From Eledone cirrhosa (taxonomy: Eukaryota), in NCBI GenBank assembly GCA_964016885.1, contig OZ024746.1:82832001-82896000 (forward strand): DNA of 64,000 nucleotides. The letters are read 5' to 3'. Positions 27,745 to 64,000 of this stretch are shown piece by piece (positions within the stretch are counted from its first letter, which is position 1; every line of letters begins with the position of its first letter). The notes under the pieces are model-generated. The model was not told where the DNA came from. It ran no database searches and worked only from the letters and a program-made list of their open reading frames with translations. A program made the position numbers and the translations under genes.

Positions 27745-27752
27745 GTAAGACA

Positions 27753-27905
27753 TATCTATCTATCTATCTATCTATCTATCTATCTATCTATCTATCTATC
27801 TATCTATCTATCTATCTATCTATTTATCTATCTATCTATCTATCTATCTATCTATCTATCTATCTATCTATCTATCTATCTATCTATCTATCTATCTATC
27901 TATCT
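27753..27905. repeat. (TATC)n microsatellite at the intron start
   Basis: Direct reading. Confidence 0.95.
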
Positions 27906-28059
27906 GTATGTCTGTATATTTATTTAAATGCATATGTTCGTATATACTTGTTTTATGCATCAAACAAATGCAATAGTTTGTGTAAGTACACATGTAAATC
28001 TATGGAAAGGTATACATCGGTTGGTTGACAATTCAAATAATAATATATGTGGGACTACA

Positions 28060-29710
28060 CATGTATATATATATATATATATATATATATATATATATAT
28101 ATATATATATATATATATGTATATATATATATATATATATATGTATATATATATATATATATCTGTATATATATGCATATATATATATATGCATATATAT
28201 ATATATATATGTATATATATGCATATATATATATGTATATATATGTATAGATATATATATATGTATATATATGCATATATATATGTATAGATATACATAT
28301 ATATATATATGAATATATATTTATATACATATATATGCATATATATTTATATATATATATATGCATATATATATATATGAATATATATATATATATATAT
28401 ATATATATATATATATATATATATATATATATATATATATATATATATATATATATATATATATATATATATATATATATATATATATATATATATATAT
28501 ATATAAAAAGACGTAAAATAAGAAAATATTTTTTAAAAAATTTAAAAAAATTTTTTTACTTACTTACTTAAATTTTCACTCCAACTAATTAGTTTCTGCA
28601 ATGGGATATATATGCATATATATATATATATATATATATATATATATATATATATATATATATATATATATATATATATATATATATATATATATATGCA
28701 TATATATACATATATATATATATATATATATATATATATATATATATATATATATATATATATATATATATATATATATGCATATATATTTATATGCATA
28801 TATATATATATGTATACATATATATATATATATATATGCATATATATATGCATATATATATATGCATATATATATGTATATATATATATGTATATATATA
28901 TATATATGCATATATATATAAGCATGAATATATACATATATATGCATATATATATGCATGAATATATGCATATATATACATATATATATTTATATTTATA
29001 TTTTTATATATATAATATATTTATATTCATATATATATATATATAATATATTTATATTTATATATGATATATGATATATTTATATTTATATTTATATATA
29101 TATAATATATTTATATTTATATATATAATATATTTATATATTTATATATATATTATATATATATATATTTATAAATATATTATATATATATATGTATGTA
29201 TATATATGTATGTATATATGCATATATATACATATATATATATTTATATTTATATTTATATATATTTAATATACATATATTTTTATATATATAATATATT
29301 TATATTTATATATATATAATATATTTATATTTATATATAATATATTTATATTTATATATATATACATATAATATATATTATATATTTATATTTAAATATA
29401 TATATAATATGTATATTTATATATATAATATATATATTTATACATATAATATATATATATGTATATATATATGTATGTATGTACATATATATATATATAT
29501 ATATATATATATATATATATATATATATATATATGTGTGTGTACGTATATATTATTGGCATAGAAGCATACATACATATATATATATATATATATATATA
29601 TATATATATATATATATATATATATATGTATGTATGTATGCTTCTATGCCAATAATATATACGTACACACACACATATATATATATATATATATATATAT
29701 ATATATATAT
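28060..29710. repeat. Compound (TA)n microsatellite block, representative of dozens across the window
   Basis: Direct reading. Similar blocks include 1490-1930, 32260-32845, 33880-34610, 36230-36760, 37100-37880, 40695-41295 and 62820-63250. Confidence 0.95.
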
Positions 29711-29962
29711 CAGATCAAATCATGTATTTGTTAAATATATATATAAATTTTATCACCTGGGCTAATATACCGATAAAATCTATTATAATCTATTAAATAT
29801 ATCATGTATATTACGTATACCATGCTCATTCCCCTATATATATGTATGCATGAAAAAATATATACATACATATATCATATACATACATATATATATATTT
29901 GTATATGTATATATTTGATAAATATTTATCCCTATACATACATATATATATATATATATATA

Positions 29963-59233: not shown

Positions 59234-61344
59234 GATGTATATGGTTATTGGAACAGCTGTTCTTGGTATTGTTCTCGGGATGGTGAACTAACTGTTGTGT
59301 AACCACTTATATATATATATATATATATATATATATATATATATATATATATATATATATATATATATATATATATATATATATATATATATAATTGGAA
59401 ATTTAGTAAAATCGAATCTCTGGCGGTTTGCAAGTAAATTCGGCCTACTTATATGAAATGATGAGTTAGCAAAGCACTCGATAAGTTAGGGCCTTAGAGT
59501 AATAACATACGTTTAAATAGCTTGACAAATCGAACATTGTGGTCGGCAAATCTAACACACAATACTATACCAAAGTAACGATAGAACTAACAGGTTGAGA
59601 AAAAAAAAATATATATATATATAACAAAGAAAGTCTGGTAAGAAACCAGGTGGACCATAACGTACCAGAGTACTCGATAACTTAGGGTAGTAGAGTGGGT
59701 AATAGGAAAAGAGTCAGGACCCCGACGGCTGAACTCCGGCCGTTTCGACAGCTAGATTTGAACTAAACGAACTAAACCAGTAGTTTAGTTCGAATCTAGT
59801 TATATATATATAAAAGAATGAAATGTGTGACCGTGTGTCTGTATTAGAAACAATTATTTTGGGTGAAGAGGGCGGTGAACTGACAGTATTTGTACAACGT
59901 CGGACAGCATGCCTTACGTTCTGAGTTCAAATCTCGCCGAGGTTAGATTTGCCTTTCATCCTTACTGGGTCGTTAACATAAAGCACCAGTAATGCACTTG
60001 TGCTTTATTTTATTGACTTGCCCCTCCCCTTAAATTGTTGGTCTTGTGCCTATATCAGAAACCGACTTAAGGCCAGCAATTATCCTAAAGTACCAGTAAT
60101 GCACTGAGATAATCGCTGGCCTTACTTGACCCCCCCCCCTCCTCCAAAGTGTTGGCTTTGAGCCTAAATCAGAAACCATTATGTAGTGTGAAGAGAGGGC
60201 GGAGGATTGACAGTATTGATAGAACATCGGATAAAATGCCGTGCGGTAGTTACAACATTCTACTTCTGAGTTCAAATCCCTCCGCGGTCAACTTTATCTT
60301 TCATCCTTCAGAGGTCGACAAAACAGAGTACCAGTTAAATACTAGGATTGATATAATCGATTTTCCCTTCCAAGAAATTGTTACGTTATGTCTCCCATAC
60401 TCTTCTTTCCAAATATGTATATCTAGTACAGGGAGAAGGCATGGGGAGGGGCATTTGATTGTTACTTTCTTTTTTATTTTTTTTATTCAACCCGAAGAAT
60501 AAAAAGCAAACCAGCCTCGGCTCGATTGAAACCCTGAGAGTAAATGTATGCAACTGATTAAGAGAAAGAATATTCTTTGCCATTCTACTGACTTTACCAA
60601 ACCCCACCATTTTGTGTATGTGTCTGTGCATTTGTGTGAGTGTGTATATTAAATAACTGCACATAAGTAAAAACAAATACATAAATATAGAATAAGGAGG
60701 TGAATAAATAATTAATAATGAATAATTAATATTGTGTATGTACTTCATAATTGGCAACTATGATTTTATTAAAACACAATAATAGCAATTTGTATGAACT
60801 GATATAGGTCTGCAATATAACTTTTGCTATATACATTCGTTCATATATAAACAGTATTAGGCATAATTATCAACACATGCATGTTTATAAAAACCACACT
60901 TCCACAACTTTGAAAACAATAGGCTAAAACGAACCATCGAGGGAGCCTCTGTGTTCTCATTCTATCTGCTAGAAATAGCAGCCAAACTTTATTCAAAGTA
61001 CACTCTTCTGTCTTAAAAGTATATATTCGTGGTAATCAATGCTTAAATAATGAGTCAAAACTTTGATTGATACACCTCACTATGGCACGCCTTGCAAGAC
61101 ATCTTTTTTATTACATGAGGTTGTAATGGTCTGTCTATCTCATTACATCTCTTGTACCTCCCTCACATGTTTCGTTTCTCTCTTTCACCATCTCTCTTTC
61201 TTTCTCTGTCTGTCTGTCTGTCTGTCTGTCTCTCTCTCTCTCTCTCTCTCTCTCTCTGTATATATATATATATATAGTTATAATAAATGTGAAATCCAAA
61301 GAAGGATAAATATATATCAAATATATAAGCTTTTTTCCGTTCAT

Positions 61345-61516
61345 TGCCAGAGAACGTCTTCACGAACCAAAGTATCGTCTTCTGTTTTCCTTCGGTTGCG
61401 ACGTTTTTCGAAATATTTACTTCTGCGTTCACAGATTGATTTTTTTAGTTTCAGAAGATCCCGTTAAGGGTGAAAGCAGCGATTCTTTGCTTAAACTTTA
61501 ATCTGTTATTTTAATA
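61345..61516 (+). mobile_element. Short (TA)n-associated repeat family
   Basis: Matches 47046-47210 (reverse) and 41856-41912. Confidence 0.7.
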
Positions 61517-61848
61517 TATGTATATATATATACACAGAGAGGGAGAGAGAGAGAGAGAGAATATGAAATATTTAACAAAAGGATGGCTAGATAGTTCGTT
61601 GACTACTCACTTCCTCAGCCGCTATTGAACTAAATACCATTACTAGTTTAGCCATACTGAGTTTATTGACAATACAATGGGCTGCTATATAAAGTCGAAA
61701 AGAAATTGATAAATAAATGGAACAAATAAATGAAGAGTAGCTGTTTAAGAAAAGCAGTGAAAATGTAAAGTGCTGTAGTGGGAGCATATTAATATCTTGA
61801 AAGGCTTAAACACATACATACATACATACATATAAACATACATGCATT

Positions 61849-62262
61849 CATGGTGGCTGCCAACTCGTTTTCGAGTACGGCCACTACTATATATCCATGT
61901 AGGAGAACCCCCACTGATGCGCTGAACGAGTGTGACTTTTTAGTTCAGCCAGTGACTTGAAAACTCTGGTACAAACACTACACTTGTGACAATTACTGAC
62001 ACATAGTGCTGGGTCCATGGTACCATGTGACGACAAGTGCAGAGAGATCTCCAGATATAAAGCAATGCCTGTGCCGTGAAGCTTTTATAGTGAGCAAAAG
62101 CAGTGCACAAAGCCAGTCCCACTCTCTTAACCAAGATGATATTTACCAAAAAGAAGAACAAGTCAACATCATTGGATACCATCAGGGTTGCAGGTGTTAT
62201 ATCAGAGTTTTCCTTCTCCTAGAATTCTGCCTTGACAAAGGCTAAGGGGTCATCTCTCCCGG
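61849..62262 (-). mobile_element. Second copy of the RTE-related element
   Basis: Near-identical to 31388-31800. Confidence 0.7.
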
Positions 62263-64000
62263 ATGCATTCATACATATATACATACAAACATTCAAACAT
62301 ACATACATACAAACATACATACATACATAATACATACATACATATATATACACATATTTCAACATTTATAGAAAAGTAAAGGCATTGTTAAGAAGAACAC
62401 ATCGCTTTCATGGAGACTCTAGTTTCACCACACTGCGTGGAGCCTTAAGTAGGAAACGTGCACCGTTGTATAAGACGCAGACACAATATATATATGTGAG
62501 TGTGTGTATATATATATATATATATATGTATGTATGTATGTATGTATGCATGCATGTATGTATGTATGTATGTATGTATGTATGTATGTATGTATGTATG
62601 TATTGTGTGTGTGTATATGTGTATGTATGTGTGTATGTATGTATATATATATATATATGTGTGTATATATATATATATATATATGTGTGTATATATATAT
62701 ATATATATATATATTTATTTTTTTTTAATTTTTCTTTTCTTTTTTATTTATTTATTAATTTTTTTTTTCTCCTCGTGCAATGGCCATACTCGATAACGAG
62801 GGGGCAGCCATCATCATGTATGTATGTATGTATGTGTATGTATGTATATATATATATATGTATATATATGTATGTGTATGTATATATATATATATATATA
62901 TATATATATATATATATATATATATATATATATATATATATATATATATATATATATATATGTATATATGTATGCACACATATGTATGCATGTATATATA
63001 TGTATGTGTGTATATGTATGTATGCATATATATGTATGTGTGTATGTATATGTATGTATGCATATATAGGTATGTGTGTATATGTATGTATGCATATATA
63101 TGTACGTATGTATATGTATGCATATACATGTATATATATGTATGTATGTATATATACATGTATGTATATAGATATGTATATATGTGCGTGTATATATGTA
63201 TATATATATATATATATATATATATATATATATATATATATATATATATGTGTGTGTGTGTGTGTGTGTGAATATGTGTGTGTGTTATAGCTTAAAGTAA
63301 AATATAAATGTAATTAATATAAGTATACTAAATAACCAATAAGGTTTCAGTAGACAGCATACTAAATTCTATATTTTATATTATTATATATATATACATA
63401 TATATATATATATATATACATATATACATATGTATGTGTGTGTGTATGTGTGTGTGTATGTGTGTGTGTATATGTGTGTGTGTGTGTATGTGTAGTGTGT
63501 GTGTTATTTATATAGTATAAACGACCCTATAATGAAAATCACAATAAAAAAAGCCCCAAAGCAAGGAAAACGTGTTTGACATTAACTTCTGAGTTCCGAC
63601 ATAACGTCTTCTCTATTATAATTCCTGAAATATTTCACTTTTAATTCTCATAAATATTTGGCGTCCCATGTTGGTTATATCCAACTTTGTATGTATGGTT
63701 GTATGAATTAGTCTGGTATATATGTCTCTCTCTCTCTCTCTCTCTCTCTCACTCTCTCTCTCTCTCTCTCTCTCTCTCTCTCTCTCTCTCTCTCTAGCTC
63801 TCTCTCTCTCTCTCACTCTCTCTTTCTCTCTGTATATATATATATACATATATATATATATATATATATATATATATATATATATATATATATATATATA
63901 TATATATATATATATATATATATATATATATATATATGAGATATATATTTATATATATATGTGTGTGTGTGGTGTGTGCGTATATCTACATATATATATG

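What the first reader, a model, noticed from the sequence alone, without database searches (positions are those of the whole stretch)
27745..64000. Hammerheads in the putative Mnx intron are mostly antisense, and two of three sense ones are masked by fold-backs
Seen: downstream of the donor, 9 motifs are on the minus strand and 3 on the plus strand. Two plus copies (43391, 43846) lie just after a near-perfect complementary arm that would pair with them in the pre-mRNA, leaving only 56352 free. Upstream of the gene all 4 motifs are plus-strand. Inference: selection may remove sense-strand self-cleaving or AATAAA-bearing inserts from the transcription unit, and fold-back may neutralise a ribozyme. 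The numbers are small, some copies are not independent, and the intron extent is assumed.
Basis: inference. Interest (0 to 1): 0.7.

Follow-up and report, generated by a model that had tools for sequence, protein, structure and literature searches.

The report
Penelope hammerheads: weak intronic antisense tilt
The self-cutting-RNA motifs in this very long Mnx intron are leftovers of abundant Penelope-type jumping genes; their mirror-image pairs occur by the thousand across the genome and likely come from the way these elements insert, and what remains of the strand bias is a weak, unconfirmed tilt (about 43% sense) whose cause is untested.

Summary
Motifs and intron are real; the masking reading is not supported, and the strand bias shrinks to a borderline tilt. 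Mnx exon 2 lies about 164 kb downstream, so 27745-64000 is intronic. The motifs are type I hammerheads of Penelope-like elements; the family of 52922 flanks a Hydra-type RT/endonuclease ORF elsewhere. Fold-backs are a genome-wide head-to-head form (9,355 versus 620 tail-to-tail). Each gives one plus and one minus copy and folds alike on both strands, so it carries no strand information. Counted as insertions, the window has 3 sense, 5 antisense and 3 fold-backs (p 0.73). In 26 other genes plus the rest of the intron: 97 sense, 129 antisense (43%, CI 37-49%, p 0.039). Thirteen other settings give 38-46%, p 0.04-0.57. LINEs: 64:70, not significantly different. AATAAA explains nothing. Lone copies are predicted to need a partner to cut. 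The scan already described these fold-backs elsewhere in this genome; the strand test is what this report adds.

The parts
27077..27744 (+). Mnx-type homeobox gene, coding exon 1 (the name Mnx rests on the recalled homeodomain signature)
   Evidence: 61% identical to P0001, a homeodomain protein; exons 2 and 3 colinear at C6:83023491 and C6:83028601
27702..27715 (+). 7-nt tandem duplication that puts exon 1 out of frame with exon 2 in this assembly; likely an assembly error or a rare allele
   Evidence: phase-1 acceptor; 7 letters left out at 27702 in 3 of 3 contigs that cover the place, 1 of 4 runs without cover
27745..64000 (+). first 36 kb of intron 1 (about 164 kb in all)
38654..38711 (-). 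type I hammerhead, unpaired, 10-bp helix I, short hairpin helix III
40247..40348 (.). minus-strand hammerhead 40262-40300 with a 43-nt inverted arm that turns inside the ribozyme
42272..42321 (-). type I hammerhead, unpaired, palindromic helix III
43128..43506 (.). head-to-head fold-back: arms 43128-43275 and 43359-43506 (148 nt, identical), hammerheads 43186-43235 (-) and 43399-43448 (+)
   Evidence: folds -251.7 (+) and -254.7 (-) kcal/mol
43691..43950 (.). head-to-head fold-back: arms 43691-43815 and 43826-43950 (120 of 125 nt), U3-A8 variant hammerheads 43763-43792 (-) and 43849-43878 (+)
52353..52764 (-). two CUGAUGA boxes in one 326-nt duplication, no GAAA box in place; doubtful as ribozymes
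52922..52970 (-). type I hammerhead, unpaired stub between TA runs; same core and helix II sequence as the pLTR hammerhead flanking a Penelope-like ORF in L186
56360..56404 (+). type I hammerhead, unpaired sense stub; predicted cut 56404/56405; helix III is an 8-nt A/U palindrome predicted to need a second copy
59199..59228 (-). small type I hammerhead, unpaired
5282..5311 (+). upstream U3-A8 variant hammerhead
5609..5653 (+). upstream type I hammerhead
19873..20081 (+). two upstream motifs in one 222-nt tandem duplication, helix I weak

Best explanation
These motifs are hammerheads carried in the ends of Penelope-like elements, the fold-backs are likely the footprint of how those elements insert rather than a selected mask, and introns show at most a weak antisense tilt that is likely not caused by ribozyme cutting. 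Shown: the intron; family sizes of tens of thousands; a 15-fold genome-wide excess of head-to-head over tail-to-tail pairs; a Hydra-type RT/endonuclease ORF between hammerheads of the 52922 family; 43% sense among one-direction insertions. Inferred: the element's RT/endonuclease pastes short 5'-truncated ends into (TA)n and often adds an inverted copy. In any transcript, on either strand, the antisense arm comes first and pairs with the sense arm. A lone sense copy such as 56360 is predicted to cut poorly, because its helix III needs a partner copy. Selection on lone copies is therefore expected to be small. The residual tilt most likely reflects an insertion-stage or generic retroelement effect, or partly chance.
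For: Intron. Family size: 35,142 full-motif and 61,560 15-mer matches. Architecture: 9,355 head-to-head versus 620 tail-to-tail; 70 of 74 genic fold-backs start minus and end plus; both strands fold alike; 2 fold-backs downstream of the Mnx stop codon. Link to the element. Literature: opposite-strand pairs 100-700 bp apart, and no detectable cutting by a single minimal motif (PMC4209133, parts 1-2 of 4 read); inverted 5'-truncated copy (PMC8557442, passages and section 11). Monomer helix III costs +4.7 kcal/mol while the dimer duplex gives -3.2; helix I probability is 0.03-0.15 for 56360. Intact versus decayed copies do not differ significantly (p 0.41), nor do hammerheads versus LINEs (p 0.38). 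AATAAA has no effect. An insertion-stage antisense bias is reported for human L1 (PMC5717806, abstract).
Against: The tilt points the same way in all 13 settings. It is stronger for intact copies (33:51, gene-level sign-flip p 0.014) than for decayed ones (64:78, p 0.22). LINEs (64:70) and Penelope ORF fragments (21:20) show little or no tilt, which a generic effect would not predict. Fold-backs are 11 of 37 elements in genes against 17.9% genome-wide (p 0.08). The two longest tandem arrays in genes have their long arm antisense (14:2 and 7:1). No cutting was measured, and tertiary loop contacts are not modelled by the folding program.
Confidence: 0.68

Rival explanations
1. Weak ribozyme-specific selection: unpaired sense hammerheads sometimes cut the nascent intron and lower splicing, so about a quarter to a third of them are purged, while antisense copies and self-sealed fold-backs are neutral. 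The fold-back is not built for this but escapes selection.
For: Intact unpaired copies 33 sense to 51 antisense (binomial p 0.063, sign-flip p 0.014), decayed 64:78. Intact copies inside fold-backs: 36 of 70 sense versus 31 of 87 antisense (p 0.053; the same data seen another way). Fold-back share in genes 30% versus 18%. Long arrays antisense. Fast intronic ribozymes are said to block splicing while slow ones do not (Fong et al. 2009 as cited in PMC10919898, passages). Retrozymes are depleted in Xenopus introns (bioRxiv 10.64898/2026.07.22.740005, part 1 of 5 and passages).
Against: Intact versus decayed p 0.41; intact versus LINE p 0.26. Binomial p is above 0.05 in 12 of 13 settings. Isolated intact copies 17:23, p 0.43. 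Per-gene sign test 8:13, p 0.38. Lone motifs are predicted to need a partner. At least 4 intact unpaired sense copies persist in this one intron.
Confidence: 0.22
2. Sense copies are purged because they bring AATAAA polyadenylation signals into the transcript.
For: Several families carry AATAAA just after the cut site. Such an effect is proposed for human intronic elements (PMC3517506, search listing only).
Against: Copies with AATAAA 41 sense to 54 antisense, without it 56:75, odds ratio 1.02. Intron 1 holds 189 sense and 188 antisense AATAAA.
Confidence: 0.04
3. A strong, Mnx-specific arrangement in which the free hammerhead at 56360 regulates the gene and the other sense copies are silenced for that purpose.
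For: The mouse Cpeb3 intronic ribozyme affects mRNA maturation (PMC10919898, abstract and passages). The intron is long, so a cut would have a long time to act before exon 2 is made (inference).
Against: Whole intron 8:13, p 0.38, the same ratio inside and beyond the window. 56360 is one of more than 35,000 family copies, is not the only free sense copy in the intron (68448, 69839, 133217), and is predicted to fold poorly.
Confidence: 0.02

Closest known systems
Hammerheads in the pLTRs of Penelope-like elements (Cervera and de la Pena 2014, PMC4209133; parts 1-2 of 4 read)
   Same: Type I fold, long helix II, palindromic helix III, U3-A8 core variant, mostly single stubs, opposite-strand pairs 100-700 bp apart, predicted need for a dimer.
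   Different: Helix I here reaches 8 bp in the main family, and the copy number is higher (61,560 exact 15-mers). In the parts read, the paper does not count orientation in introns.
Hydra clade of C-terminal EN+ Penelope-like elements (Craig et al. 2021, PMC8557442; passages and section 11 read, supplements not opened)
   Same: RT followed by a CxCX5C linker and a GIY-YIG-type region, canonical hammerheads, (TA)n targets, inverted 5'-truncated copy.
   Different: The window holds only non-coding stubs. The ORF link was shown for the 52922 family (L186, L187) and one other family (P0002), not for every family. No tree was built.
Antisense bias of retroelements in mammalian introns (PMC1794541, PMC3088655, PMC3517506: search listing; PMC5717806: abstract)
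   Same: Excess of antisense copies within genes; selection and insertion bias are the competing causes.
   Different: The tilt here is small and borderline, LINEs in the same introns show 48% sense, and the candidate cause would be a ribozyme.
Metazoan non-LTR retrozymes (PMC7229834, passages; bioRxiv 10.64898/2026.07.22.740005, part 1 and passages)
   Same: A 467-bp tandem hammerhead array lies further down the same intron; dimers cut better than monomers; depletion from introns is reported in Xenopus.
   Different: The motifs inside the window are lone or inverted stubs, not tandem units. The preprint has no strand analysis ('antisense' 0, 'orientation' 0 occurrences).

Membership tests
Type I hammerhead ribozyme | CUGANGA (or U3-A8 variant) and GAAA boxes, UH cut site, helices I-III | tested here: met
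   10 motifs downstream of the donor; not met for 52353 and 52758
Type I hammerhead ribozyme | Compensatory changes in the helices | tested here: met
   7 of 18 predicted pairs with two-sided changes in 9 related copies; helix I varies on one side only
Type I hammerhead ribozyme | Match to an Rfam hammerhead model at gathering score | tested here: not met
   0 matches in the window
Type I hammerhead ribozyme | Self-cleavage | not testable with these tools
   only folding energies
Penelope-like element (Hydra clade) | Hammerhead-bearing repeat flanking an RT plus C-terminal GIY-YIG-type ORF | tested here: met
   L186 and L187, 2 of 2 loci chosen for wide spacing, 47-55% identical to P0002; motifs read by eye, as Pfam gives no hit
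Penelope-like element (Hydra clade) | CxCX5C linker and DKT motif | tested here: met
   CxCX5C in L186, L187 and P0002; DKT in P0002, while the L186 and L187 frames start after that point
Penelope-like element (Hydra clade) | Inverted 5'-truncated copy and (TA)n target | tested here: met
Penelope-like element (Hydra clade) | Placement in the clade on an RT tree | not tested
   no named reference sequences were at hand
Intronic antisense bias of retroelements | Significant antisense excess within genes | tested here: inconclusive
   97:129, p 0.039; 38-46% sense, p 0.04-0.57 over 13 settings
Intronic antisense bias of retroelements | Bias due to selection: absent in new insertions, tied to a harmful signal | tested here: inconclusive
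   AATAAA odds ratio 1.02; intact versus decayed p 0.41; polymorphism data not available

The most novel reading that the evidence does not exclude
Tens of thousands of Penelope hammerheads are active enough in nascent pre-mRNA to be selected against on the sense strand of introns, most of all as dimer-competent arrays, while head-to-head insertions seal their own ribozyme and pass unselected. The genome would then hold a population-scale readout of ribozyme activity in vivo.
Probability: 0.2. Interest if true: 0.65.

Novelty: new member of a known kind. Interest (0 to 1): 0.3.

Why it matters
Whether Penelope hammerheads cut in cells is open: PMC8557442 calls their function unclear and PMC4209133 found low activity in vitro. 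Strand bias in introns is a way to test it from sequence alone, and this genome has enough copies. My sample rules out the strong bias suggested by 9:3 (CI 37-49% sense) and shows that fold-backs must be set aside when counting. It leaves open a small effect that a full annotation would settle. I saw no strand analysis of Penelope hammerheads in the listings or in the passages; most subscription papers and all supplements were not seen.

Tried and rejected
Rfam: the E-value scan was swamped by microRNA models on microsatellites, and the gathering scan found nothing. The repeat finder was swamped by TA repeats. My first reading, that 43846 lacks a catalytic core, was wrong: it is the published U3-A8 variant. 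No RNA holder was listed, so nascent ends at 56404/56405 and splicing were not examined. An opposite-strand gene upstream, to explain 10 plus to 1 minus there: no Pfam hit in 71 minus-strand ORFs of 62 aa or more; short exons or non-coding RNA are not excluded. Dropping the largest span, SNF_C1a (23:29), was considered; its exons proved single and colinear, so it was kept. Eleven of 216 descriptor hits were dropped before the main count because they did not recur (listed); one search keeps such hits. The narrower first seed set gave 29:40 in 25 genes, p 0.23. Orientation is not locally correlated (neighbours within 1 kb 28 same to 27 different; beyond 1 kb 90:76). Pfam and PDB did not name the Penelope ORFs. 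PMC3365414 gave nothing on intronic ribozymes. The look-up of nearby earlier findings was empty.
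Full report
Setting. The window is G000:C6:82832001-82896000 of a 3.0-Gb genome; earlier scan notes call it an octopus genome. The ORF at 27077 is 61% identical to P0001, a homeodomain protein; the name Mnx rests on my recall of the homeodomain signature. P0001 places exon 2 at C6:83023491-83023676 and exon 3 at C6:83028601, same strand and in order, with a clean acceptor. Splicing itself was not seen, since no RNA holder was listed.

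The motifs. Rfam gives nothing at gathering score. A type I descriptor (two boxes, three helices, UH site) finds, downstream of the donor, seven minus motifs (38654, 40262, 42272, 43186, 43763, 52922, 59199) and three plus motifs (43399, 43849, 56360), plus a weak plus motif at 61452. The same descriptor gives 1-17 hits in 2.0 Mb of reversed sequence. The main family shows two-sided changes in 7 of 18 predicted pairs among 9 copies. The motifs at 43763, 43849 and 5282 have the U3-A8 core described in PMC4209133.

What they are. One family pattern has 35,142 exact matches genome-wide, its 15-mer 61,560. Two loci picked for widely spaced copies of the 52922 family (L186, L187) each hold an RT ORF with a CxCX5C linker and a GIY-YIG-type region, a same-sense hammerhead after it and an inverted copy before it. 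These features match the Hydra clade of Penelope-like elements (PMC8557442 section 11). The motifs were read by eye, Pfam names none of them, and no tree was built.

The fold-backs. The arms are as described, 148 of 148 and 120 of 125 nt, and the sense ribozymes are predicted to be fully paired in context. But the form is general. There are 9,355 head-to-head pairs against 620 tail-to-tail pairs at 40-400 nt spacing, about 30% of all 15-mer copies. In genes, 70 of 74 fold-backs start with the minus copy and end with the plus copy. A head-to-head pair reads the same on both strands and folds alike (-251.7 and -254.7; -207.5 and -201.0 kcal/mol). A plus copy lying just after a complementary arm is therefore true of every such insertion wherever it lands. 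Opposite-strand pairs and inverted 5' copies are in print, and earlier scan notes describe them in this genome.

The strand test. The null is 50:50 for insertions that point one way. I took 26 genes whose direction comes from colinear exons of the myosin, SNF, kinesin and kinase families (fetched in 32-39 and 59; 1.748 Mb; spans checked for further exons), chosen for length before scanning. Seeds were descriptor hits that recur (205 of 216); decayed copies were added by blastn, and linked copies were merged. Window: 3 sense, 5 antisense, 3 fold-backs (p 0.73; 38654 is missed by this seed set). Whole intron: 8, 13, 11 (p 0.38). Other genes alone: 92:121 (p 0.055; gene-level sign-flip 0.046). 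Other genes plus the intron beyond the window: 97:129, 43% sense, CI 37-49%, p 0.039, sign-flip 0.029; intact 33:51 (0.063; 0.014), decayed 64:78 (sign-flip 0.22). The tilt is seen in plus-strand genes (55:61) and more in minus-strand genes (42:68). A descriptor-only recount under 13 settings gave 38-46% sense, binomial p 0.044-0.57 (below 0.05 in 1 of 13), sign-flip 0.037-0.61. The narrower first analysis gave 29:40, p 0.23. The per-gene sign test is 8:13, p 0.38. A 75:25 bias is excluded; a 57:43 tilt is possible but not established.

Cause. AATAAA does not matter: odds ratio 1.02, and 189 sense to 188 antisense in the intron. LINE fragments in these gene spans, the whole Mnx intron included, are 64:70 and Penelope ORF fragments 21:20. 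Neither hammerheads versus LINEs (p 0.38) nor intact versus decayed (p 0.41) differ significantly. Fold-backs are 11 of 37 elements in genes against 17.9% genome-wide (p 0.08), and the two longest tandem arrays have their long arm antisense (14:2, 7:1). These lean towards weak selection on active sense ribozymes but are small numbers. Against it, the free motif at 56360 has an 8-nt A/U palindrome as helix III, which costs +4.7 kcal/mol as a hairpin and gives -3.2 as a dimer duplex, with helix I probability 0.03-0.15. A single minimal motif did not cut in vitro in PMC4209133, while a canonical coral retrozyme monomer cut well (PMC7229834 passage), so activity cannot be read from class alone. 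Slow intronic ribozymes are said not to affect splicing (Fong et al. 2009, as cited in PMC10919898). Human L1 gets much of its antisense bias at insertion through transcription-coupled repair (PMC5717806 abstract).

Upstream. The four plus motifs are three events. Over 66.6 kb upstream the count is 10 plus to 1 minus (p 0.012 uncorrected, one of 29 regions). No Pfam domain was found in 71 minus-strand ORFs there. This is unexplained; chance or a divergent non-coding transcript are both open.

Verdict. The elements and their fold-backs are known kinds. The new piece is a first, underpowered strand test that excludes a strong bias and leaves a weak one open. Supplements of the cited papers were not opened and may bear on family names and genomic distribution.

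Noticed in passing
window 27702-27715: A 7-nt tandem duplication frameshifts Mnx exon 1 against exon 2 in this assembly; it is absent from all 3 public contigs that cover the place (two from one sample of the best-matching organism, one from a relative). Likely an assembly error or a rare allele.
   Followed up: partly
L015:6637 to L016:4028 (window-equivalent about 160.6-168.0 kb, same intron): A 467-bp retrozyme-like array, 99% matches between units in the part scanned, with 14 antisense and 2 sense hammerhead copies joined head to head. This is the dimer-competent case where selection should show best.
   Followed up: partly
window 1-26576 and L022-L025: 10 plus-strand to 1 minus-strand hammerhead insertions in 66.6 kb upstream of Mnx; no protein domain found on the minus strand.
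   Followed up: partly
L027:1197-5062 and the end of L026: A large fold-back with long ORFs (958 and 1177 codons) pointing away from each other and small hammerheads near the centre, in an SNF transporter intron; no Pfam hit for the 1177-codon frame.
   Followed up: no
L022:5238-8822 and L060:5804-9388: Two 1195-codon LINE ORFs (endonuclease, RT, zinc finger) with nearly the same start and the same Pfam scores on different contigs, suggesting a young family.
   Followed up: no
window about 24000-24590: A/T-rich tandem repeat with a unit of roughly 117-119 nt about 2.5 kb upstream of the Mnx start, followed by C, GGT and G runs.
   Followed up: no
L143 (gene coordinates 3236-5263): A 310-bp tandem hammerhead array, 7 antisense and 1 sense copy, in a myosin intron; the same family forms a 2:1 array in SNF_C1a.
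   Followed up: partly
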